Assembly: GCA_963768705.1 (NCBI GenBank)
Contig: CAVYJE010000027.1
Location: forward strand, 7,828 to 71,827
Length of the DNA: 64,000 nucleotides
Origin: an uncultured Chloroflexia bacterium
GTDB lineage: Bacteria > Chloroflexota > Dehalococcoidia > DSTF01 > WHTK01
Direction: 5' to 3'
Position numbers and translations under genes: made by a program
In this document: one piece after another, positions 1,324 through 63,609 of the stretch
Position numbering within the stretch: the stretch's first letter is position 1
How the letters are laid out: the number at the start of each line of letters is the position of its first letter
The notes under the pieces: model-generated
Seen by the model: the letters and a program-made list of their open reading frames with translations, nothing else
The model's database searches: none
Told to the model about the DNA's origin: nothing

Positions 1324-3124
1324 GCGAGTTCCGGGTGTGGGCGCCGCTTGCGAAACGGGTCGATATTCTCGCCCTGGGCCAGCGGCGGCCCATGACGCGC
1401 GACGGCGGCTGGTGGCGCATTGAGCTGCCGGAGGTAGACCGCGGGGTGAATCCCGCGGCAACGGAGGCTGAGACACACCGCGGGCTGAACCCCGCGGCAT
1501 CAACCACAAGCCCGGGCGTCGACTACGCGTTCCACATTGATGGGCAGGGGCCGTTCCCCGACCCGCGCTCGCCGCTGCAGCCCAACGGCGTCGACCGGCC
1601 TTCGCGCTACGGTCGACCACGCGGCGTTCGCGTGGCAGCACGACGCGTGGCCAATGGTGCCCCTGGCGGACGCCGTGATCTACGAGATGCACGCGGGCAC
1701 GTTCACGCCCGGCGGCACATTCGACAGCGCGATCGAGAGGCTGGACCACCTCGTGGCCCTGGGCATCACGCACGTCGAAGTCATGCCGGTGGCGCACTTC
1801 TCCGGTAGCCGCGGTTGGGGCTATGACGGCGTCGACCTGTATGCGCCGCACACGGCCTACGGCGGTCCGGAGGCGCTCAAGCGCTTCGTGGACGCCTGTC
1901 ACGGCCGTGGCCTGCGGGTGCTGCTGGACGTCGTGTACAACCACCTGGGGCCGTCCGGCAACTACACGGAGCGCTTCGGGCCGTACTTCACGGAGCGTTA
2001 TCACACGCCGTGGGGCAAGGCGCTGAACTACGACCAGGCCTATTCGGACGAGGTGCGGCGCTACGTCGTCGACAACGTCCTGATGTGGCTGCGGGACTAT
2101 CGCTTCGACGGCCTGCGCCTCGACGCGGTGCACGCCATCCTCGACCAGTCGGCGGTGCACCTGCTGGAGCAGATCGCGGTCGAGACGCGGGCACTGGAGC
2201 AGCGCGACGGGCCGACGCTACGACATCATCGCCGAGAGCGACCTCAACGACCCGCGCCTGGTACGGGACATCGAGCACGGCGGTTTCGGGCTCGACGGCG
2301 CCTGGAGCGACGACTTCCATCACGCCCTGCACGCCCTGCTCACGGGCGAGACGGCCGGCTACTACGCCGACTTCGGCGGCATCGGTCACCTGGCGGACGC
2401 CCTGCAGCGCACCTACGTCTACGACGGGCGCTACTCGCCCTACCGTAACCGCACACACGGCCGGCCCGTGGGGGAGACACCGGCGAGCAAGTTCGTGATC
2501 GCGGCCCAGAACCACGACCAGGTGGGCAACCGGGCTGTCGGCGAGCGCCTGGAGCACCTCGTGGGCATCGGCCGGGCAAAGATTGCCGCCGCCGTGCTGC
2601 TGACGGCGCCGGGCGTGCCGTTGCTGTTCCAGGGTGAGGAGTGGGCCGCGTCCTCGCCGTTCCAGTACTTCACGGCGCACGAGGACCCGGCCCTCGGCAA
2701 GGCCGTCAGCGAGGGACGCCGTCGCGAGTTCGCCGCGTTTGGCTGGGAACCCTCGCAGGTGCCGGACCCGCAGGACATCGCGACGTTCGAGCGCTCACGT
2801 CTCGACTGGGGCGAGGTCGAGCGCGCTCCCCACGCCGAGATGCTGGCTTGGTACCGAGACCTCATCGCCCTGCGCCGCCAGTCGCCCGAGCTGCGTGACG
2901 ATGACCTGCGCAACGTGCACATTACCTACGACGAAGACGCCCGCTGGCTCACGATGACCCGCGGTGCGGTTACGATGGCGTTCAACCTGGCATCGGAAGC
3001 TCGCGAGCTGGACGTAACGCCCAATTCGGCGCTCGTGCTGGCCAGCGATAGCTCCATCACACTCACCGGCACGACTTTGCGCCTGCCGCCTGACACCGTA
3101 GCGGTCGTCAGGTCCGGCGCTTGA
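1320..3124 (+). CDS. treZ: malto-oligosyltrehalose trehalohydrolase (GH13), frameshifts near 1610 and 2210
   Basis: ATGA overlap with the treY stop; [67 protein letters not shown] across three frames. Confidence 0.93.
1439..1501. repeat. two degenerate REP family A palindromes inside treZ, in frame
   Basis: ccgcggg-gtgaat-cccgcgg (1439-1458) and caccgcgggctgaaccccgcggcatc (1476-1501) match the intergenic cactgcgggatgaatcccgcagctac. Confidence 0.75.
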
Positions 3125-26926: not shown

Positions 26927-27175
26927 CCTTCGACGGGTGAGGCCGAACAGGAGTCGGGGCCTCGTGGAGAGAGGCGCACTCACGTGATCGACCGCCGAGG
27001 TGTGGGCACCTCGGCTACGTCTTCGGGGGTGGTCAACCCTTCAATTGACTTCGTAGTCGCCGAGCGCTGCAAGCCCTCACCCTAACCCTCTCCCAGAGGG
27101 CGAGGGGACTGCACCTTCGGTTGCGCGTGTCTGCATCGGGCGATACGCGTCCTTCGACAAGCTCAGGACGAACGG
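26927..27175. repeat. cluster of REP families E, B and C
   Basis: B gaccgccgaggtgtgggcacctcggctac at 26990-27018; C at 27074-27108; E ccttcgacaagctcaggacgaacgg at 27151-27175. Confidence 0.85.
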
Positions 27176-27834: not shown

Positions 27835-28592
27835 TTAGGTGGACTTCTCCTCGCCCGGGTTATTCGGCTCGTCTTCGACGTCATCGTCGCGCCGCAGGTG
27901 TTCGGGCAGCTCCGGAGGCTCCGGGCTGGGGCCGCGACCGCGACGCCACCATGCGATTCGACCATGTCGGCATCGGGCTCGGTCGGGGGGCGGGTCGGCG
28001 ACACGGCCGGACGGGTGGTGCGACGCGTGGCAGGGCTGCCGCCTCGGTGCAGGCGTAGCTCGCGGTAGTGGAGCTTGGCGGTCGGCGGGCGCAGGAGGGC
28101 TACGTGCACGCGGTCCGTGAGCACCTCGGTGGCAGCGTGACAGGCTTCGTCCGTGACGGTCGCCAGGTTGGCCTCGGGGTCGACCTGGAGGTCGAGGGCG
28201 ACGAGGACGCCCTTGCGCTTCGACTTGACGCTGGCGCGCACCTCGGCGACGTGCGGCACCTGCACGACGGCCTCTTCGATGCGCTGGCTGATCGCCGCGG
28301 CGGAGAGGGTCGCGGTGCCGGAAGCGAGGTCGGTGACCTGCACGGCGGGGCCGCGACGGGGGATGAGCTCGATGAGGAGGACGATGGTGGCGACGAGGCC
28401 GACGAAGGCGCTGATCGTGGTCAGCAGGGCCTTTTCGAGGTCGCCGTCATGGTCATCGACCCACTGGGCGGCGTCGCCGAGCCAGTTCACGCTGCGGTTA
28501 GGGATGGTCCAGGTCAGGGAGATGATCCCAACCGCGGCAACCACCAGCAACACACAGAGGACAATGAGGACGATTCGGTTGAACGTGTTCAC
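27835..28592 (-). CDS. alkaline shock response membrane anchor AmaP / Asp23-like protein, frameshift near the 3' end
   Basis: MNTFNRIVL, two TM helices, Asp23-like alpha/beta domain. Confidence 0.7.
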
Positions 28593-29927
28593 GCCATGAC
28601 CTCCCCGATGAGACCGTCATCACTAAGCCCCGCGATCCGCACAGCTGTCAGCCGGTTAGCCAGATTGGCGTTTGAACGGGCACGCACGCGTACGTAGGTG
28701 TCCGTCAGGCCCTCCCAGGTATCGCCGTCATGTCGAGTCTCCCACAACACGGAGGTCGTCGTACCGGCGTATCGCCGGCGATAGGCCTTCGACATGCCCG
28801 AGGCGAGGTCGATGAGGCGATGCACGCGCTGCTTCTTAATGTCGTCGGGCACCTGACCGGGCAGCTTGTAAGCCACGGTGCCGCTGCGTTGCGAGTAGGG
28901 GAAGACATGGATGCCCGCGAAGGCCATCTCCTCGCAGAAGGCGTAGCACTCGTCGAACTCGTCGTCGGTCTCGCCCGGGAAGCCGGCGATCACGTCGGTG
29001 GTGATCGCGACGTCCGGGACGACGTCACGCAGGCGGTGTACGGCGTTTCGGTACTCGTCCTGGGTGTAGCGGCGTCGCATGCGCTGTAGCACGCCGGCGC
29101 TGCCGGACTGGAGGGCGAGGTGGTAGTGGCGGCACAGACGCGGGTTGTCCCAAAGGGCGATGAGGTCGTCGTCGAGGTCCTGGGGCTGCACGGAGGACAT
29201 GCGAATGCGGGGTATCGAGGTCTCGGCGAGGAGCGCCTTGCATGAGGTCGTACAGGCGCACGCCGATGTCGGAGCCGTAGTGCCCGAGCTGGGTGCCGGT
29301 GATCACGATCTCCCGTACGCCCTCGGCCTCGCGCTTCTGGGCCTCTTCGACCACCCAGGCAACGGTCTTCGAGCGCTCACGGCCACGGGTCTTGGGGATG
29401 ATGCAGAAGGCGCAGACGTCGTTGCAGCCTTCCTGAGCGGCGATGAAGGCGCGGGTGCGGTAGACCCCTCCCCCCGGCCCCCTCCCCGCTGGCGGAGAGG
29501 GGGAGAGCGAGCGTGAACTACTGTGCTCCCTCTGCCCTTGGGAGTAGGTAGGGGTGAGGACAGGCCCGCCGCGAAGCTCGATGAGCTTGTCGGCGAGGGC
29601 AAGCTGGTCCGGCTGGCGGTAGACGAGGTCGGCGGCGAGAGCGTCGAGCTTGTCCGGCGGCGCCGTCTCCAGGAGACAGCCTGTGAGGGCGACCGTGGCG
29701 TTGGGCGCGATGCGACGGGCCAGGCGCATGAGGTGTCGCGACTTATGGTCGGCCTTGTGGGTGACGGAGCAGGTGTTGACGATAACGGCGTCGGCCTCGG
29801 TTGCGCGGTCGACCACGTCCCAGCCGGCATCGCGCAGGCGACGCGCCATCACCTCGGAATCGGCGATGTTGAGCTTGCAGCCGAGGGTAAGGATGGCGGC
29901 GGTGGTCGGATGGGGGGACTCTGACAT
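28589..29927 (-). CDS. mtaB: tRNA t6A37 methylthiotransferase (radical SAM + TRAM), frameshift near 29235
   Basis: TLGCKLN, VNTCSVT, QEGCNDVCAFCIIP, LQSGS, TTDVIAGFPGET, HVFPYSQRSGT. Confidence 0.92.
29462..29560. repeat. inverted pair of REP family C inside mtaB, in frame
   Basis: 29462-29503 is nearly identical to intergenic 42919-42959; 29526-29560 is a reverse copy resembling 21727-21759. Confidence 0.82.
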
Positions 29928-30080
29928 AAGGACGCCTACAAGGGCCATCATAGGCGACAGTGGTCAGGTGTCAAACGGCAGCGTAGCGGCCGCGAGCTGC
30001 AAGCTTCAAGACTGGAGCTACACAGCAGCACGCCACGCCCCAGCAGCATCAGCTCGTGGCTTACGGCTTACCGCTTGGAG

Positions 30081-31094
<1,014 letters not shown>

Positions 31095-31107: not shown

Positions 31108-32353
31108 CTATCCGATCTCACGAGAGAGCATCTGCTGCTCCCGAATCGAGCTAAACAGGACGACGCCCAGCGCGAGGAACAGCCCGGCGATGATCACGAA
31201 GCCGAGGTGAAACGAGATCGCGGCGAACAGCGCCGCGCCGGCGGGACCGACGCCGAACGAGAGCGCCTGGGCCGTGGCGGCGATGCCAAAGCCGGTGCCA
31301 CGCCTCGACCGCGTGACGCTGCTGGCAATGTGGGTGTTGATCGCCGGCACGAGGGAGGAGATCACGAGGGCGATCATGAGGAAGCCGGCGATGTACATCG
31401 GCACGGAGTCCGTGATGGCCAGGAGCAGGAAGCCGGCGGCGCCGAAGGCACAGGCGGCGCCGAAAGCCCGCCCGCACCCGGCCCGGCCTGAACACGATCG
31501 GCGCCAGAAACAGGACGCCGAGGGCGCTGACGAGGCCGCCGAGGCTGAAGGTGATGCCGGAGACGCCCGCCACATCGGCGCCGTCCTTGATCGCCTTGAG
31601 GGCGATCGGCGTCGAGAGGCGGATGAGCTCGTTCATGGCGTAGACGCAGAACAGGGCGCCGACGCCGAGCGCGAACTGCGGCGACCACCGGAAGGGCTCG
31701 ATTGCGGTCTTCTCGCCGGCGGCCGTCCGGCGCGGCGCCACCCGGTCGCGCGGCACCCAGAGCAGGACCATCGTCGCCGTGATCAAGGGGACGACCGAGG
31801 CAACGACGATCGTGGTGCGAAAGCTGAACAGCAGCGCGAGCAGGGCGCCCAGGGCGGGGCCTGTGGTGGTGCCGAGGTACTGGGCGCCCGTGAGGGTGCT
31901 GAGACTGCGATTGAGGCGATGGTCCGGCACGAGAACGCTCACCAACGACACGGACGCAGGGATGAAGCCCGAAAACAGGCCCTGGCAGGCCGTGGCCACG
32001 GCGAGGTGCCACGGCGCCTGGGCTACGGCGGCGAACATGAAGGTGAGACTGGCGAGGTAGAGGGCGCGCAAGAGCATGAGCTTGCGACCCCAGCGATCGG
32101 ACAGGACGCCCCAGATCGCGCTGGAGGCGAGGCGGGTCACGCCCTGCATCGTGATCGCGAGGGCAACCCAGGCTACGGCGTCGGCATCGCTTTTGGCGCC
32201 GAGCTCGAGGGCGTACAGGGGCATGAAGGGGTACCAGACGTTGAACGACATCGCCGTCGCACCGGCGGCGGCGGCGATGAACAGGGTGGAGCGCCGGCCT
32301 TCGTCGCCGGCAGCGGGCGCGGTGGTTAAGTCTGGAGGCTCCTCGGAGGCCAT
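31108..32353 (-). CDS. MFS transporter (MdtG/DHA1-like), frameshift near 31470
   Basis: [29 protein letters not shown]; about 12 TM segments. Confidence 0.9.
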
Positions 32354-36200: not shown

Positions 36201-36323
36201 CCCTCACCCTAACCCTCTCCCGCTGGGAGAGGGGACCTTCCATCGGGCGTTTCGGAGAGTTGTATGGGCGGGCTTGGTGTTGAAACCAATTACTAACAAC
36301 CAACAACTGAGAACTGACCACTG
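36201..36323. repeat. REP family C copy plus heptamer repeat abutting the next start codon
   Basis: ccctcaccctaaccctctcccgctgggagagggg; actaaca-accaaca-actgaga-actgacc-actg-ATG. Confidence 0.8.
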
Positions 36324-37668: not shown

Positions 37669-37956
37669 CCTTGAGTCTATTGGTCCGCCAACATGCCAAA
37701 GCTGCCTATAACGAAATGCCTGATGGACTGTCCCCTCTCCCGCTAGGAGAGGGCTGGCAGCCTCTCATGCGCTGAGCCTCGGCCTGACGCATGGGAACCT
37801 CGGCGCTGCGCATCGCTGTCGCGCTGGTTCGACTCCTGAGAGAGAAGAGAAGCATTGGGGGCGATACCCCCCACGCCCCGGCAGCGCTCAGGACAGGCAT
37901 GGCCTGCCGCCCCGGCTACCCCTGCTGTCTCGGACGGCGTTTATACTCGCCTCGCA

Positions 37957-39133
37957 GTGCACATCCGTCGCTTTCAGCTCTCCGGCTTTCGCAACTACCG
38001 CAGCCTCGACCTCGAACCGCCGCCCGGCGCCCTGCTCTTCCTCGGCGACAACGCCCAGGGCAAGAGCAACTTGCTGGAGGCGGTGGCGCTGCTGGCCACC
38101 GGCAAGTCGGTGCGCGCCGGCCAGGACGCCGAGATGATCGGTTGGGGGCAGGAGGCGGGCCTGCAGCCGTTCGCGCGCGTGCACGCCAGCGTCGAGCGGC
38201 GCCAGGGTGCGGTCGAGATCGAGACCATCGTGGCGGGGCAGTCGCCTTTGGGCGCGCCGCAGGGCCGGGGCGGCAAGCGGTTTCGGGTCAACGGCATCGC
38301 CCGGCGCGCCGTCGACTTCGTGGGCCAGCTGAGAGCGGTGCTGTTCACGGCCGACGACCTCGATATCGTATCGGGGCCGCCGGCCAACCGGCGGCGGCTT
38401 CCTCGACACGGCGCTGACCCAGGCCGACCGCGCCTACTACACGGCGCAGCAGCGCTACGGCCGCATCCTGCAGCAACGCAACGCGACACTGAAACGAATC
38501 AGGGAGGGTGTCGCCGGCACCGATGAACTGATGCTGTGGGACGACACGTTCAGTCGCGAAGGTGCGACGATCATGGCAGCGCGGCACCGGGCGGTCCGGC
38601 GGCTGGGCGACCTGGCGGCGGAGTCGCACGTGCGCCTGAGCGGCTCGGCGCTGGAGCTGCTGGAGCTGGCCTACCAACCCCAACTGGGCGAGCAGTGGAA
38701 GGACCTATTGCCGGAGGACGCCACCGCGGCGAGTGTGCAGCCCCTGCTGGCGGCGGCGATGGCGGCGCAAAGGCGTCGAGAAACGGCGGCCGGGCTCTCG
38801 CTGGTGGGGCCGCACCGGGACGACGTGGCGATCCTGCTCAACGGCGTCGCGGCGGCCTCGTTCGGTTCGCGGGCGCAGATTCGTACCGCGGCGCTGTCGC
38901 TGCGCCTGGCCGAGGCGGAGCTGCTGCGCGGCGGCGGCGACCCGCCGGTGCTGCTCCTGGACGACATCCTCTCGGAGATGGACGAGAAGCGACGGGAGGC
39001 GGTGCTAGGCGGTCTGGCGGGGTTCGAGCAGGTGTGGATCACGGCGACTTCGGGGTCGGCGTTGCCGGAGGCGTTTCTTGCGTCGGCGACGACTTACGCA
39101 GTGGAGGCTGGGACGGTCTCCAGGACGAGTTAG
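37957..39133 (+). CDS. recF: DNA replication and repair protein RecF, frameshift near 38395
   Basis: FRNY, GDNAQGKSNLLEA, LQQRNATLK, GPHRDD, FGSRAQ, PVLLLDDILSEMD. Confidence 0.95.
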
Positions 39134-39208: not shown

Positions 39209-39338
39209 CCCTCACCCTAACCCTCTCCCAGCGGGAGAGGGGACACCGCATCAGGCGTCGCGGAGCCCAACAGTGCTCCGAAGTCCACCACTCGTGACCA
39301 AGAACCAACTACTAACCACTGAGAACTGATAACTGATT
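39209..39338. repeat. REP family C copy plus heptamer repeat
   Basis: C at 39209-39243; accaaga-accaact-actaacc-actgaga-actgata-actgatt at 39297-39338. Confidence 0.8.
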
Positions 39339-42910: not shown

Positions 42911-43047
42911 TAGCGGTGAGACCCCTCCCCCAACCCCCTCCCCGCCGGCGGAGAGGGGGCCTCGCGAACCGCATCTCCTTGACATCGTAAGCGGAAATGT
43001 TCATATAGACCGCACAACATCGCTTTCGATTCGCCGGGGAGGGCATC

Positions 43048-44829: not shown

Positions 44830-46656
44830 CTACCAGCTGCCGCCGCCGCCGCCGCCACCACCACCACCGGAGAAGCCACCGCCGCCGAAGCCGCTCCCGC
44901 CAGAGCCACCCGGCGTCGAAGTGATGGCGCTCGATACGGATGACGAGAAGCTGTTGAGGTTCTGGGAGAAGGCGACAGCCGCGAAGGGGTAGGGCGAGAC
45001 GTACCAGCTACCGGTATTGGGCTGGATGCCCATGTCTTCGAAGGCCTTGGCCCACTTGTCGACGCAGCCGAAGACCATGGCGTACGGCAGGTACTCCGCG
45101 AAGATGTTCTCCTCTTCGTTGAAGCGCTGGCGGTCCTTTTCGGCGACCTCCATGTACTCGCGGAAGCCGAGGATGCGTCGATACATCTCGCGGCCGGCCG
45201 GTGTGCGGCGCGGCATCTTGCCCGAGAAGAGGAACACGAGCAGGCCCACGGCAATGACCGGGATACCGAGGATGGCGGCACCGATAGCGTTACCAAGGAT
45301 GAAAGCAATAACGGCGCCCGTGACGACAATCACAATGCCGCCAACCATGTGGTAGTTGCGCACGTTCTCCGGGTTCTTCGGGAAGAACTTGTCCTGGCTG
45401 ACGACCTGCGTGTAGAGCATGTCCTTGACCTTCGCGAGGTCCTTGTAGAACGAGTTCTTGAGGTCGGACATCTCCACGGTATCGCCGTCGTCGAAGAGGC
45501 GGCGGAGGAGAGAAGCCTCGTAGGCCAGGAGGGTGTCGTCGCCATCCCTGAGCTTTTCGAGCTTGTAGTCCTTGCTGCCGAAGATCCATTTCTTATCGAT
45601 CTCGGTGATGCGCATGTAGCCGCGCACGGCGAGGTCCACCATCGTCGCGGTGACGTCGAGGGTATCGGCGCGCTCGTCCAGGAGGGTGCCGATCTCGGCG
45701 GGTCGCAGGCGGCGCTCGCGACGGCCGATCTCCGGGGGCATGTACTCGACGATGATCGTGTCTTTGGCGAACAGCGGGCGCGTCGTCGCTTCTTTGTTGC
45801 CGGTGAGATAGTGGACGTCGCCGAACCAGCGATCACGGCCCGTGAGCCACCAGTAGCGCCCGACGCCCATGATGCCGAGGATGCCAAGGAACACGGTAGC
45901 GGCAATGGGGAGGGGCGAGATGCCTGCGAAGTCCTTGACCTTCTCGACGTCAGACTTCTGCTTCACGAGGTGCAAGGGCCGCACCTCGACGCTGCCTTTG
46001 GTCAGGGCGACAACGATCGTGAGACCGCTGCCGGGAGGGAGGCTATGCGTGGACCGGAACATCTGAGCGCCGTTGATCGAACCCGCGCATCCCTCGGTCG
46101 ATCCTTGAGGTCCCTGAAAGCAATCCTGGCGCTCGGTCGAAGGTGCATGCACGACGGCGGACGCGGCCTGTATCGTCACCGGCCATTCATTACCCGTGAC
46201 GTTCCAGTACAGCTCGTCCCAGTCGTCCTGGGGATTGAGGGCGTTGGGCAGGGTGTAGCTGATGACGTAGCGCTGCTGGCCCGTGACCAGCTTGTTCGCG
46301 TCGCCGATTTTGATCTCCAGGTTGGCGCCAATGCGGCTCTTCTCGAAGTGAATCTTCTTGGTGCCATCTGTCACCGACACGTCCTCGATATCGAAGATGC
46401 GATGGTAGTCGGGATCGTCCGTGGTGAACTCGACGGGGATGTCGCGGAAGATGCCGTGGCGCTGCAGAGTGCCGAAGTCGTACAGGATGTCCTCGGTGAC
46501 CAGGACGGAGCCATCCTCCCGGACCTCGTAAGTGGCATCGAAGCTGCGGATGGTCTCTCCGGTTTGCGCCTGCACCTGCTGCGCCCGGATGGCGACAAGG
46601 GGCAGGAGCAGCAGGGCAGCGAGGACGAGAAGGCGGGAGGTTCGTGAGTTGAGCAT
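44830..46656 (-). CDS. DUF2207 membrane protein
   Basis: VTEDILYDFG..RHGIFRDIP, DELYWNVTGNEW, ATMVDLAVRGY, YLPYAMVFG, GGGFSGGGGGGGGGGSW. Confidence 0.92.
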   Translation of the reverse strand: MLNSRTSRLLVLAALLLLPLVAIRAQQVQAQTGETIRSFDATYEVREDGSVLVTEDILYDFGTLQRHGIFRDIPVEFTTDDPDYHRIFDIEDVSVTDGTKKIHFEKSRIGANLEIKIGDANKLVTGQQRYVISYTLPNALNPQDDWDELYWNVTGNEWPVTIQAASAVVHAPSTERQDCFQGPQGSTEGCAGSINGAQMFRSTHSLPPGSGLTIVVALTKGSVEVRPLHLVKQKSDVEKVKDFAGISPLPIAATVFLGILGIMGVGRYWWLTGRDRWFGDVHYLTGNKEATTRPLFAKDTIIVEYMPPEIGRRERRLRPAEIGTLLDERADTLDVTATMVDLAVRGYMRITEIDKKWIFGSKDYKLEKLRDGDDTLLAYEASLLRRLFDDGDTVEMSDLKNSFYKDLAKVKDMLYTQVVSQDKFFPKNPENVRNYHMVGGIVIVVTGAVIAFILGNAIGAAILGIPVIAVGLLVFLFSGKMPRRTPAGREMYRRILGFREYMEVAEKDRQRFNEEENIFAEYLPYAMVFGCVDKWAKAFEDMGIQPNTGSWYVSPYPFAAVAFSQNLNSFSSSVSSAITSTPGGSGGSGFGGGGFSGGGGGGGGGGSW

Positions 46657-46881
46657 GCGGTCACAGCATAGGGGATGCAGCGGGGATACCTCACCCCCTA
46701 ACCCCCTCTCCGATTTCAGAGAGGGACATTTCTCTCTACAGCTTACGAAAGACCGTTGATACTTCGGGCGGGCGGTAAGCGGGCTGACTGGATTCGAGGT
46801 CACTGGATGGGCACAATGGGGTGGGCGGGGCAGACGTCCGCGTAGTCTGGTTCGAAACGCTAGCGTCGAAGGAGCAGGACG

Positions 46882-47691
46882 ATGATCGAGGTGTCTAACT
46901 TCCAGGAGCAGGTGCTGGACGCGAGTCATGAGAAGCCGATCCTGGTCGACTTCTGGGCGCCGTGGTGCGGGCCGTGCCGTCAGCTCGGGCCGATCCTCGA
47001 GAAGCTGGACGAGCAGAACGATGCGTTCACGCTCGCCAAGGTGAACACGGACGAGGACCAGGACACGGCGATGCGCTACGACATTCGTAGCATCCCGGCC
47101 GTGAAGCTGTTCGTGGACGGCGAGGTGAAGGGCGAGTTCATGGGAGCGCTGCCGGAGTCGCAGGTGCGCACGTGGCTGGACGACGTGCTGCCGAGCGAGG
47201 TCAAGGACCTGCTGCAGGCGGCGCACGACTTGATCCAGGAGGGCGACAAGCCAGCGGCGGCAGAGAAGCTGGAGCGCGCCCTGGAGCTGGACCCCAACAA
47301 TGCCGATGCAATGGTCGGCATTGCGACGATCGTCGTGTTCAAGGAGCCGCAGCGGGCAGTCGAGCTCGTGAGCGCGGCAGCCAAGATCGACCCGCGACGC
47401 ATCGGGGATGCCCGCGGAATCGATACGCTGGTGACGCTGCTGCAGAGGCGAGAGAGCGTCGACGAGCTGGAAGACGACCCGGCGAAGGCGCCGTACATCG
47501 AGGCGCTGGACAAACTGGGTGAGGGCGACTGGGACGGCGCTCTCGGCGCGCTGGTCGAGTCGGTGCGGCGCAATCGGGCCTACAACGGGGAGGCCGCGCG
47601 ACTGGCGTGCCTGGCGCTGTTCAACGTGCTGGGGTCGCGCAACCCCACGGTGAAAAAGCACCAGCGGTCGTTGGAGATGGCGCTCTTCTAG
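46882..47691 (+). CDS. thioredoxin-TPR co-chaperone (CnoX/YbbN-like)
   Basis: DFWAPWCGPC, then TPR-like helices; ends RSLEMALF. Confidence 0.9.
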   Translation: MIEVSNFQEQVLDASHEKPILVDFWAPWCGPCRQLGPILEKLDEQNDAFTLAKVNTDEDQDTAMRYDIRSIPAVKLFVDGEVKGEFMGALPESQVRTWLDDVLPSEVKDLLQAAHDLIQEGDKPAAAEKLERALELDPNNADAMVGIATIVVFKEPQRAVELVSAAAKIDPRRIGDARGIDTLVTLLQRRESVDELEDDPAKAPYIEALDKLGEGDWDGALGALVESVRRNRAYNGEAARLACLALFNVLGSRNPTVKKHQRSLEMALF

Positions 47692-47747
47692 CTTCGCGCA
47701 GAGGGGCAAAGAGGGCGTTCTCGGCGAGCGAGAGGCTTCGTGCGCAT

Positions 47748-48095
47748 GACGCCGAGGCGAGGACGCCTCGGCTACGGTTGGAGGTGCACCGGCGCCTGGT
47801 GTCCGAGCGAGAAGCAGGCTGTTCACTGTCGTTGCGAGGAGGCGGTAGCCGACGCGGCAATCCTCCGGCACCTCATGCGGTCACAGACGCCATTCAGCGC
47901 AACAAGGCTGGAAGATTGCCGCGGCCCGCTATCGCGTGCCTCGCAACGACAGTTAGAGATGCCGTCATCAGAGTCGACGTGTTCGCGTGGGGCAGGCGGT
48001 TCGACACTGCGGGATGAATCCCGCAGCTACGTCGTCGAACGAACCACCTCCAAAGTCCGGGAGGATCTTTGCCGTTTGCCGTTTGCCGTTTGCCG
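47748..48095. repeat. cluster of REP families B, F (pair), A and a heptamer repeat
   Basis: B at 47748-47775; F at 47828-47950; A at 48005-48030; (TTGCCGT)n at 48069-48095. Confidence 0.85.
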
Positions 48096-61947: not shown

Positions 61948-62243
61948 GCACCCAAGACTACATCGGGGCACAGGAACGTTGCTGCAGAAGCACCACTGCA
62001 ACGGGGAGAATTAGGGAAACCACGCACCACCATCTATTTATAGTCGACAGTTCCATCACGGTTCTAGCCGGCCTCCAGAACAGTGGAACGACGTCCGGGC
62101 GCCCGGCCATGAGCCGTCACGATGGGGGACATTAGGGAAACTACTGATACATCGGCCCCCAGCAGGCCGGCATCACCGCCGGCTTCACGTCCCAGTGCGG
62201 CTACGTAGAGGTCCTGCCCGGCACGCAAAGCAGCATGCTGTCT

Positions 62244-62272
62244 TTGACAGGCCTGCGTGCTGCTGTTAAGTT
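62244..62272 (+). promoter_or_regulatory. sigma70-type promoter of the rdhA-like gene
   Basis: TTGACA - 17 bp - TAAGTT; inverted repeat gcacgca/tgcgtgc (62221-62260) spans the -35 box; GGAGG at 62284. Confidence 0.6.
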
Positions 62273-62297
62273 TGCGGCCATTCGGAGGACAGTGCAG

Positions 62298-63609
62298 ATG
62301 GCAATCGATCAGGCTCCCGCCGAAACGACAACTGCAAACACATCCGGAAGCGAGACGGACTTCCCCACGCCCTACCTCGGCCGTACCGTCCGCATTGTCG
62401 GACCCGTCGAGAACGTCGATCCGAAGACGCTGCCGCATGCGAAGGCTGGGCGGGGCGAACTTGGCAAGGCCGTATTCAACTGGCGCAACAACACAATCTC
62501 GGCTGACCCACTGGCTCGGGTTGCCTATGACACCCACGCGGCCGACCCGAACAACCACATCAACACGCTGCTTCGCAAAGGCAAGCCCGGCGCCGTCAAC
62601 CCGCGCCGGTTGCCCGTCAACGACGCGAAGGCGATGTCGCGTCATATCAAGAAGGCGGCGCGTGATTTCGGCGCGGATGTCGTTGGTATCGGTAAGACGC
62701 ACCCGGCCTTTCTGTACGCGGGCAACTACCTCGACAGTGGCACGGGCGTTGGTGACTCGCTCTCTGATACGCCCGAGGCGCTCGCGAAACGGCTGCCTCA
62801 TGTCATCGTGGCCGTCGCAGCCTGGGACTATGACCTGATCCAGGCACATCGACACCACATCGGGGATGCCGCATACGACTTCACGCTGCTCAAGACGAGC
62901 ATGACCGTCAGCGCGCTGGAGGGTTACATTCACGAGATGGGCTACACGGCAATCCGGAATGCCGTGAACCCGCAGGCCGCCGCGCTGGCTGCGGGTGTCG
63001 GCGAGCTTGGCCGCAACGGCATGATCATCACGGAGAAGTTCGGGCCGCGCGTGCACATGTACGACGCCATCCTCACGGACCTACCGCTGGTCGCCGACAA
63101 GCCGATCGACATTGGCGTCGAGGACTTCTGCAAGGTGTGCCGCAAGTGCGCCGTGACGTGCCCAACGAACAGCATCTCATTCGAAGGCAAGCAGGTCTAC
63201 AACGGCGTCGAGAAGTACAAGATCAACTGGGAGACCTGCTATAAGCTCCGGCCTCTGGTGGCCGACCACTGGGGCCAGTGTCTGACCTGCGTCACCGTCT
63301 GCCCCTACACGAAACCAAACAAGTGGTGGCGAACCCTGGCGATTCAGTCGCTGAAGCGCACGCCCCTTCGGTTGCGGTCCCTCGTCGCCCGCGGGCTGAA
63401 ATTGCTGGACGACCGCGTCTGGGGTGTGATCCCGAACAAACGGGTACGCTGGCTGGGACTACGACACGGGAATCAAGCCCGGCGAAAAGGCCTGCACGAT
63501 TGCCGGCTGCACCGCTGACCATGCAGGCGCTTCGTTCGTGCCAACTGAGGACATCGGTTTCTACATACCGCTCAAGGAAAACACAAACCGCTTCGTGAAG
63601 CGCGGCTAG
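62298..63609 (+). CDS. reductive dehalogenase-like cobalamin/2x[4Fe-4S] protein without Tat signal, frameshift near 63458
   Basis: HIKKAARDFGADVVGI, AGVGELGRNGMIITEKFGPRV, LTDLPLVADKPIDIGVEDFCKVCRKCAVTCP, C...CLTCVTVCPY. Confidence 0.85.

What the first reader, a model, noticed from the sequence alone, without database searches (positions are those of the whole stretch)
29462..29560. Inverted REP pair translated as the MtaB interdomain linker
Seen: agacccctcccccc..ccccctccccgctggcggagaggggg in mtaB almost duplicates intergenic 42919-42959. With an inverted partner it encodes VLTPTYSQGQREHSSSRSLSPSPPAGRGPGGGV, right before RTRAF..QEGC. This is a different REP family from the one in treZ, in a conserved tRNA-modifying enzyme. 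Inference: several repeat families in this genome insert into permissive linkers and create protein sequence; the mRNA hairpin could also pause ribosomes between domains.
Basis: partly seen in the sequence, partly recalled or inferred. Interest (0 to 1): 0.7.

Follow-up and report, generated by a model that had tools for sequence, protein, structure and literature searches.

The report
Selfish hairpin repeats inside MtaB linker
Two short GC-rich "triplex-motif" DNA repeats of different age lie head to head, in frame, in the flexible linker of the tRNA-modifying enzyme MtaB. This is an ordinary case of a selfish repeat family that has landed in frame in at least 15 genes of this soil or marsh bacterium.

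Summary
Window 29464-29505 is a 42-nt copy (14 codons) of a dispersed repeat. I call it family C; the genome holds 75 loose matches and 49 exact ones. It is identical to copies elsewhere and is read in frame as SPSPPAGRGPGGGV in the MtaB linker.

The "inverted partner" (29527-29559, opposite strand) is real but is a decayed copy of a related, older family D. Both fit the published BoxC/PIT/TM intrastrand-triplex repeat consensus, with 2 and 4 substitutions.

Most MtaB relatives have a linker about 23 residues long. One clade of relatives carries family-D remains at the same place. The family C copy is found only in this genome, so there were two insertions, not one composite.

In this genome, 15 of 66 family C units sit in frame in genes such as PurM, IspD, Fpg, RNR and IleRS, against 0 of 109 family D units. 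All 5 DUF559 nuclease genes lie 15-123 nt from such a repeat, 4 of them between an inverted pair. One sits in frame inside an Lhr helicase gene.

The mtaB frameshift near 29238 is probably an assembly error. Ribosome pausing is untested.

This scan has reported the same repeat-DUF559 pattern before, on this genome (purM) and on many others.

The parts
28589..29951 (-). mtaB, the tRNA ms2t6A methylthiotransferase, read in two frames (N piece 29223-29951, C piece 28589-29200)
   Evidence: TIGR01579 matches profile positions 1-213 (172 bits) and 226-416 (192 bits). Pfam finds UPF0004 and Radical_SAM. It is the only mtaB-grade match in the genome.
29464..29505 (+). Family C repeat unit, 42 nt: a pyrimidine block, then a hairpin with 12-nt arms. 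On the mRNA strand it supplies 14 codons, SPSPPAGRGPGGGV.
   Evidence: It is 100% identical to copies at C24:60808, C16:1880 and C18:23074. Its ends are fixed by foreign contigs. The hairpin arms are 29478-29489 and 29492-29503. It fits the TMECO consensus with 2 substitutions on the minus strand.
29506..29526 (.). Unique spacer between the two repeats (codes for about HSSSRSL)
   Evidence: BLAST finds no other copy in the genome.
29527..29559 (-). Decayed family D (BoxC/TM-type) repeat, inverted relative to the family C unit. It codes for LTPTYSQGQRE.
   Evidence: It fits the loose pattern with 3 substitutions and the TMECO consensus with 4 substitutions on the plus strand. The relatives P0002 and P0006 carry LTPALSQGERG and LTPALSLEGRR at the same place.
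29238..29240 (.). One extra base that splits mtaB into two frames
   Evidence: There is a 1-nt gap against the G003 orthologue. A 96%-identical contig from run X1 lacks one base at 29238.
42921..42959 (+). It lies just upstream of a minus-strand gene start.
   Evidence: nhmmer E 1.9e-10.
46685..46725 (+). Copy of the CCTCACCCC-type subfamily of family C
   Evidence: nhmmer E 3.6e-9.
27075..27108 (+). Family D copy near scpB. Further family D copies lie at 36202-36235 and 39210-39243.
   Evidence: C27:34902, 44029 and 47037; window coordinate = C27 coordinate minus 7827.

Best explanation
The MtaB linker of this Chloroflexota genome holds two selfish repeats of the G/C-rich three-block (BoxC/PIT/TM-like) kind, in inverted orientation. 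They were inserted at different times.

The older one (family D type, 29527-29559) entered the linker in an ancestor shared with a few relatives and has decayed. The younger one (family C, 29464-29505) is a 42-nt unit that inserted recently and only in this lineage, adding exactly 14 codons.

Both are read through by the ribosome as Pro/Ser/Gly-rich peptide. They sit in the naturally length-variable segment between the N-terminal methylthiotransferase domain and the radical-SAM domain, so the enzyme tolerates them. They are passengers with no function of their own.

Shown: repeat membership, boundaries, uniqueness of the family C copy to this genome, the open frame, and the variability of the linker. 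Inferred: translation, tolerance, and the order of the two events.

Family C units are most likely solo ends or miniature derivatives of a cassette that carries a DUF559 (Vsr-like) nuclease gene between inverted copies of these repeats. That link is by association only.
For: Repeat status:
- Family C has 75 loose and 49 exact copies, and controls give 0.
- The published TMECO consensus hits the genome 55 times literally, and the reversed control gives 0.

Recent family C insertion:
- The copy is 100% identical to three other copies.
- The closest relative, G003, has 5 exact family C copies and none in mtaB.
- The peptide SPSPPAGRG occurs in 1 of 121 sequences (G000 plus 120 orthologues) and in none of the other 25 MtaB frames taken from the genus-to-order loci.

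Older partner:
- P0002 and P0006, in the same 10-row clade, carry the family D reading LTPALS... at the same place.
- Family D copies sit in the linkers of L002, L003, L006, L007, L008, L037 and L055 at the DNA level.

Permissive site:
- Linker length ranges from 20 to 80 residues.
- MiaB (7mjv) is longer at this position.
- Residues 131-193 of the model have pLDDT below 50, next to a confident N domain.

Frame kept:
- Removing 29464-29505 leaves ...SRSL-YRTRAF in frame (direct reading).
- The PurM copy is an exact 42-nt insertion relative to G003.
- 15 units lie in frame in genes, and 9 of them are spanned by one domain match.
- The 18 readings of family C copies within those units use only four Pro/Ser/Gly/Glu-rich frames.

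DUF559 link:
- All 5 DUF559 matches lie 15-123 nt from a repeat, and 4 of the 5 sit between an inverted pair. The 5 Y1_Tnp matches lie at least 5.5 kb away.
- One cassette shares an open frame with the DEAD domain of an Lhr-type helicase.
Against: - mtaB is frameshifted in this assembly. If the frameshift is real, the repeats sit in a dead gene and are not translated.
- No proteomic or RNA data exist. No RNA run holds the stretch, and no contig bridges the linker in its mtaB context.
- The assembly has many indel errors, so the exact homopolymer lengths inside the repeat, and therefore the exact peptide, are not independently verified.
- Shared ancestry of the partner with P0002 and P0006 rests on peptides alone and on a weakly supported tree (support 24-86).
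- G003, the nearest genome, carries a family D copy in the opposite orientation. The history may therefore involve replacement or more than two events.
- The DUF559 link is a co-location, not a shown activity.
Confidence: 0.75

Rival explanations
1. mtaB is a pseudogene in this organism. The repeat landed in, or survives in, a dead gene and is not translated.
For: A 1-nt insertion near 29238-29240 splits the gene into two frames.
Against: Split genes are common in this assembly. In this window treZ, tsaD, an MFS gene and recF are also split, and completeness is 68.7% for 4.1 Mb. A 96%-identical contig from run X1 lacks one base at 29238, which restores the frame. Both halves keep strong MtaB scores. 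This is the genome's only mtaB.
Confidence: 0.1
2. The two repeats entered together as one composite miniature element with inverted terminal repeats, like the other convergent pairs in this genome.
For: 10 of 16 neighbouring family C pairs are convergent. Such pairs, 169-191 nt overall, sit in frame in IleRS-, Mfd- and RNR-like genes. The mtaB pair has the same convergent layout.
Against: The partner belongs to a different subfamily and is decayed, whereas the family C copy is pristine. The inner part is only about 21 nt, against 55-147 nt in the other pairs. The relatives P0002 and P0006 have the partner-type peptide without the family C peptide.
Confidence: 0.1
3. The insert is kept because it is useful. 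It could be a longer flexible linker, or an mRNA or DNA hairpin that slows ribosomes between the two domains to help folding or iron-sulfur cluster loading.
For: Repeat-derived PLPxGEGxGEG peptides persist in 19 of 121 sequences. The repeat arms are perfect in L003, L006, L007 and L037. A stable 11-bp RNA hairpin is predicted.
Against: Many members of the clade have lost or blurred the motif. The perfect arms are not more conserved than synonymous sites in the flanks, where third positions are 81-85% identical. The region's fold energy is ordinary (z -0.98). The family C copy is too young to show selection. The same unit sits in at least 14 unrelated genes.
Confidence: 0.07
4. Assembly artefact: a repeat-induced misjoin or a collapsed repeat put the unit into mtaB.
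For: The assembly is rich in errors. No independent contig bridges the insert in its mtaB context.
Against: Both flanks are the same gene, collinear with its orthologues and in the same frame across the unit. The same kind of exact 42-nt insertion is seen in purM relative to G003.
Confidence: 0.03

Closest known systems
BoxC / PIT / TM(ECO) G/C-rich intrastrand-triplex repeats (Holder et al. 2015, PMC4666352; I read the abstract and passages)
   Same: The architecture is the same: three blocks, one pyrimidine block and two purine blocks of about 9-11 nt separated by short loops. The paper's consensus CCCTCNCCC-N3-6-GGGNGAGGG-N3-GGGNGAGGG hits this genome 55 times literally (control 0). It fits the family C copy in mtaB with 2 substitutions and the partner with 4. 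These repeats are many, dispersed and highly conserved.
   Different: In E. coli the paper found them 'always located intergenically', with no link to mobile elements. Here 15 of 66 family C units are in frame inside genes, and all 5 DUF559 genes lie within 15-123 nt of such repeats. Family C has longer blocks, with the odd base in the middle, so it is a variant and not a literal match.
Rickettsia palindromic elements (RPE; Ogata et al. 2000 and 2002, as summarised in the MITE review PMC10969869, passages read)
   Same: These are dispersed palindromic repeats inserted in frame into unrelated housekeeping genes. They add a conserved peptide at sites the protein tolerates.
   Different: RPEs are about 150 bp and belong to Rickettsia. 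The units here are 42 nt (pairs 137-191 nt), have a three-block triplex-type design, occur in Chloroflexota, and have a candidate partner gene. I made no sequence comparison with RPEs.
REP / REPIN elements with their RAYT transposase
   Same: Both are short GC-rich hairpin repeats, often in inverted pairs, whose spread is thought to depend on a single-copy partner gene flanked by the repeats.
   Different: The 5 Y1_Tnp (RAYT/IS200-type) matches in this genome lie at least 5.5 kb from any family C or D copy, whereas the DUF559 matches lie 15-123 nt away. REPs are extragenic.
Homing endonuclease genes in inteins and group I introns (the Vsr/DUF559 clade includes a group I intron homing endonuclease according to PMC3424549, table passage read)
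   Same: A small nuclease gene lives inside conserved host genes (Lhr here) in the host's reading frame.
   Different: I saw no intein or intron splicing signatures. The cassette ends in hairpin repeats, and short nuclease-free units are far more common.

Membership tests
BoxC/PIT/TM intrastrand-triplex repeats | Three-block consensus CCCTCNCCC-N3-6-GGGNGAGGG-N3-GGGNGAGGG (PMC4666352) | tested here: inconclusive
   The genome holds 55 literal hits and the control gives 0. The two mtaB copies fit only with 2 substitutions (family C, minus strand) and 4 substitutions (partner, plus strand).
BoxC/PIT/TM intrastrand-triplex repeats | Many dispersed, highly similar copies in one genome | tested here: met
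   There are 49 exact family C matches and 52 exact family D matches, and reversed controls give 0. The loose patterns give 197 distinct elements.
BoxC/PIT/TM intrastrand-triplex repeats | Intergenic location (E. coli: always intergenic) | tested here: not met
   15 of 66 family C units lie in frame in genes. Family D behaves as published, with 0 of 109.
BoxC/PIT/TM intrastrand-triplex repeats | Folds into an intrastrand triplex in vitro | not testable with these tools
   Only the hairpin part can be folded here.
RPE-like in-frame selfish repeats | The same repeat is inserted in frame in several unrelated genes with the ORF kept | tested here: met
   There are 15 open in-frame units. In 9 of them one domain match spans the unit: PurM, IspD, FGE-sulfatase, Fpg, PhnH, RNR, Polysacc_synt_2, DegT and MtaB.
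RPE-like in-frame selfish repeats | Sequence relationship to the Rickettsia RPE families | not tested
   No RPE sequence was on hand.
REP/REPIN-RAYT | Repeats flank a RAYT (Y1 transposase) gene | tested here: not met
   The 5 Y1_Tnp matches lie at least 5.5 kb from the nearest family C or D copy.
MITE | Terminal inverted repeats plus a target-site duplication | tested here: inconclusive
   Convergent pairs act as inverted ends. The PurM, IspD and DegT junctions show no clear duplication.
MtaB (TIGR01579) | Whole-protein score above the curated cut-off of 357 | tested here: inconclusive
   The two frames score 172 and 192.4 bits separately. Each is below the cut-off, but they cover profile positions 1-213 and 226-416.
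MtaB (TIGR01579) | UPF0004 N domain followed by a radical-SAM domain with the CxxxCxxC motif | tested here: met
   UPF0004 covers residues 18-102 and Radical_SAM starts at 173. The motif CNDVCAFC is visible.

The most novel reading that the evidence does not exclude
The long-unexplained BoxC/PIT/TM 'triplex' repeats are the ends of a selfish cassette that carries a DUF559 (Vsr-like) nuclease. The cassette lives inside protein-coding genes in the host's own reading frame. It occupies an intein-like niche but is not spliced out and is tolerated as extra peptide. The 42-nt units, such as the one in the MtaB linker, are its miniature nuclease-free derivatives. The MtaB linker is a site that such elements hit or keep again and again across a Chloroflexota clade.
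Probability: 0.4. Interest if true: 0.75.

Novelty: new variant of a known kind. Interest (0 to 1): 0.42.

Why it matters
For MtaB itself the matter is small: one more tolerated linker insertion.

The wider pattern is of more interest. A published repeat class (BoxC/PIT/TM), said to be intergenic and without a partner gene, here behaves like the Rickettsia palindromic elements and makes protein sequence in at least 15 genes. It also co-locates strictly with DUF559 nuclease genes. That gives a testable candidate for what moves these repeats.

It also shows how interdomain linkers and surface loops gain length. For annotation there is a practical point: such inserts and their Pro/Gly-rich peptides should not be read as domain features or as gene breaks.

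Tried and rejected
- The family C nhmmer profile did not find the partner, and BLAST found no other copy of 29506-29560.
- Extra nucleotide-level conservation of the repeat arms in the relatives' linkers: rejected. Synonymous sites in the flanks are already 81-85% identical.
- Core length against location: 9 of 11 in-frame single copies have a 40-nt core, against 23 of 38 intergenic ones. This is no clear difference.
- Target-site duplication: none is clear at the PurM, IspD or DegT junctions.
- Public runs: the 5 runs listed hold only small shares of the stretch (0.05-0.14), and none holds half of its words. In the 4 runs I laid, no listed contig piece bridges the linker in its mtaB context (29559-29619 has no depth), so the insert is not independently confirmed and no habitat is claimed.
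- The AlphaFold model of the 243-residue N piece gives low confidence for residues 131-193. The radical-SAM part is cut by the frameshift, so this adds little.
- The whole-region RNA fold is not better than shuffles.
- I looked for inverted repeats inside treZ and found none of note. The treZ-associated repeat is the 26-nt hairpin at 1476-1501. I did not test whether it is translated.
- Paper searches for DUF559 with 'mobile' or with repeats, and for intrastrand triplex with 'in-frame', listed nothing on such a cassette. I judged this from titles and abstract starts only.

Full report
**What is at the coordinates**

The gene on the minus strand at 28589-29951 is mtaB. NCBIfam TIGR01579 matches profile positions 1-213 in the frame 29223-29951 and positions 226-416 in the frame 28589-29200. 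Pfam finds UPF0004 (residues 18-102) and Radical_SAM (from residue 173).

The plus-strand stretch 29464-29505 is a copy of a dispersed repeat, which I call family C.
- A loose pattern finds 75 copies in the 4.14-Mb genome.
- An exact pattern finds 49, and the reversed-sequence control finds 0.
- Three copies elsewhere are 100% identical over 43-44 nt.
- Contigs of an unrelated soil metagenome match only 29462/29464-29505 and then diverge, which sets the ends of the unit.
- The unit is 42 nt. Taking it out leaves ...SRSL-YRTRAF in frame (direct reading).

**The partner**

The family C profile does not detect 29524-29560, and BLAST finds no other copy of it.

The relatives' MtaB linkers gave the clue. 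Several of them hold a second repeat type, family D, made of the blocks CCTCACCC, CCCTCTCCC and GGGAGAGGG.
- A pattern of these three blocks, allowing up to 3 substitutions, finds 186 places in the genome. It finds 0 in a Markov-simulated genome and 1 in the reversed genome.
- One of those places is window 29528-29559 on the minus strand.
- I chose the pattern after seeing the region, so this is not a blind test.

Both repeat types have the three-block design of the published BoxC/PIT/TM intrastrand-triplex motif. The consensus printed in PMC4666352 hits this genome 55 times literally (control 0). It fits the family C copy with 2 substitutions on the minus strand and the partner with 4 on the plus strand. 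The lead to that paper came from earlier notes of this scan. I read the paper's abstract and passages. The 'inverted pair' is therefore real, but it is made of two related families in different states of decay.

**History in relatives**

I compared three sets of MtaB sequences.

*Genomes from genus to order (26 MtaB frames from the 30 loci fetched; L011, L028, L029 and L030 dropped).* The basic linker is short, and only some members of the genus have long ones. At the DNA level, L003, L006, L007 and L002 carry a family D copy on the non-coding strand, read as PLPxGEGxGEG. L008 carries one on the coding strand.

*Database orthologues (120, none above 75% identical).* The segment from the end of the last N-domain helix to RTRAFI is 20-80 residues long, most often about 23.
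- Recognisable repeat peptides occur in 24 of 121 rows, all within one clade of 56 (support 82, FastTree, linker columns left out).
- The family C peptide occurs in this genome only.
- P0002 and P0006, which sit near the window's row, read LTPALSQGERG and LTPALSLEGRR where the window reads LTPTYSQGQRE. This is the family D unit in the same orientation and frame.

*Metagenome loci (80).* These add DNA examples (L037, L055) and a further variant outside the clade (L054).

Repeat content across genomes:
- Family C is nearly private to this lineage. G003 has 5 exact copies, and G010, G014, G008 and G011 have none.
- Family D is widespread in the genus. G001 has 44 copies, G010 56, G008 25, G003 17, G005 11, G016 11, G011 10 and G014 2. 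G012 and G002 have none, and both have short linkers.
- One of G014's two family D copies is its mtaB linker copy.

The simplest history is an old family D insertion (or several), followed by a recent family C insertion next to it. G003, the nearest genome, has its family D copy in the other orientation, so the old history is not fully resolved.

**Is the gene alive?**

mtaB has one extra base near 29238-29240 relative to G003. I read this as an assembly error, for two reasons.
- treZ, tsaD, an MFS gene and recF in the same window are also split, and completeness is only 68.7%.
- A 96%-identical contig of run X1 lacks one base at 29238.

The same error proneness means that the homopolymer runs inside the repeat are not independently checked.

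**The family as a whole**

I trained a codon-usage score on long ORFs. It picked the right frame in 97% of 300 test pieces. I used it to classify 175 units, merging elements that lie within 200 nt of each other.
- 15 units are in frame and open.
- 2 are in the same phase but contain a stop.
- 10 are on the same strand in another phase.
- 39 have one coding flank.
- 107 have no coding flank, 1 lies between opposite-strand genes, and 1 is at a contig edge.

All 15 in-frame units contain family C: 15 of 66 family C units, against 0 of 109 family D units (Fisher p 1.5e-7).

Among the 27 units with coding flanks on one strand, 17 keep the phase. One third would be expected (p 0.0015). Assembly frameshifts and tandem genes add noise to this count.

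Pfam or NCBIfam shows one domain match spanning the unit in 9 of the 15: PurM, IspD, FGE-sulfatase, Fpg, PhnH, class II RNR, Polysacc_synt_2, DegT and MtaB. Two more units lie between or beside domains of one protein (Mfd, IleRS). Two lie outside the recognised domain, and two ORFs have no match.

Further points:
- The PurM unit is an exact 42-nt insertion relative to G003, and the IspD unit is 45 nt.
- The 18 readings of family C copies within those units use four Pro/Ser/Gly/Glu-rich frames and never the two Arg/Trp-rich ones.
- 10 of 16 neighbouring family C pairs are convergent. Such pairs, 169-191 nt overall, sit in frame in IleRS-, Mfd- and RNR-like genes.

**Candidate partner gene**

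All 5 DUF559 (PF04480) matches in the genome lie 15-123 nt from a family C or D copy. Four have an inverted pair around them and one has a copy on one side only. The 5 Y1_Tnp matches lie at least 5.5 kb away.

The cassette at C14:181660-182197 shares one open frame with the DEAD domain of an Lhr-type helicase. Helicase_C and WH_Lhr follow in other frames.

The PD-(D/E)XK survey PMC3424549 puts Vsr, DUF559 and a group I intron homing endonuclease in one clade (table passage). Here I checked it only as co-location.

**Mechanism and its limits**

Best reading, at about 0.75 confidence: the repeats are neutral or nearly neutral selfish insertions, read through as flexible peptide in a length-tolerant linker.

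The linker is tolerant by three lines of evidence: its natural range of 20-80 residues, the longer equivalent in MiaB 7mjv, and the lack of predicted structure (weak).

A role for the RNA hairpin in ribosome pausing cannot be judged. The 11-bp stem is predicted, but the region's energy is ordinary, and the repeat arms are not more conserved than synonymous sites.

**Compared with what is known**

The design matches BoxC/PIT/TM repeats, which the paper reports as always intergenic in E. coli and unlinked to mobile elements. The behaviour matches the Rickettsia palindromic elements (review passages).

My searches for DUF559 with 'mobile' or with repeats, and for intrastrand triplex with 'in-frame', listed no paper that describes such a cassette. 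I judged this from titles and abstract starts only. I did not look at supplements.

Noticed in passing
G000:C14:181660-182197 (locus L131, about 861-1398): A DUF559 nuclease gene lies between an inverted family C pair inside an Lhr-type helicase gene. It shares one open frame with the DEAD domain. Helicase_C and WH_Lhr follow in other frames.
   Followed up: partly
G000:C14:176544-178120: A class II ribonucleotide reductase gene carries convergent family C pairs (176544-176708 and 177931-178120) plus another copy at 177570. The classifier scored only the second pair as in frame and open. The first pair is open in the same frame, but its left flank did not pass the classifier.
   Followed up: partly
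window 1489-3121, 30081-31060, 31108-32353, 37840-39130: treZ, tsaD, an MFS transporter gene and recF are each split into overlapping frames, as mtaB is. The assembly (and that of relative G003) looks rich in single-base indel errors.
   Followed up: partly
window 1476-1501: A 26-nt hairpin repeat of another family, with at least 10 copies in the genome, lies at the start of treZ. Whether it is translated was not tested.
   Followed up: no
window 46685-46725: A copy of the CCTCACCCC subfamily lies inside a 1016-codon open frame on the minus strand (44833-47880). That frame has no NCBIfam match. The copy may be another intragenic one.
   Followed up: no
window 62148-63515: An ORF matches the reductive dehalogenase subfamily model TIGR02486 (E 9.6e-43). 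This fits the Dehalococcoidia-like naming of the MtaB relatives.
   Followed up: no
inner parts of the convergent pairs, e.g. G000:C9:422562-422648 and C14:184379-184490: The inner parts share a third hairpin (CGTCCTGAGGCCCTCGAAGGACG-like).
   Followed up: no
G014:C1:2627503-2627534 (locus L006): This complete 3.2-Mb relative has only two exact family D copies, and one of them is the copy in its mtaB linker.
   Followed up: no
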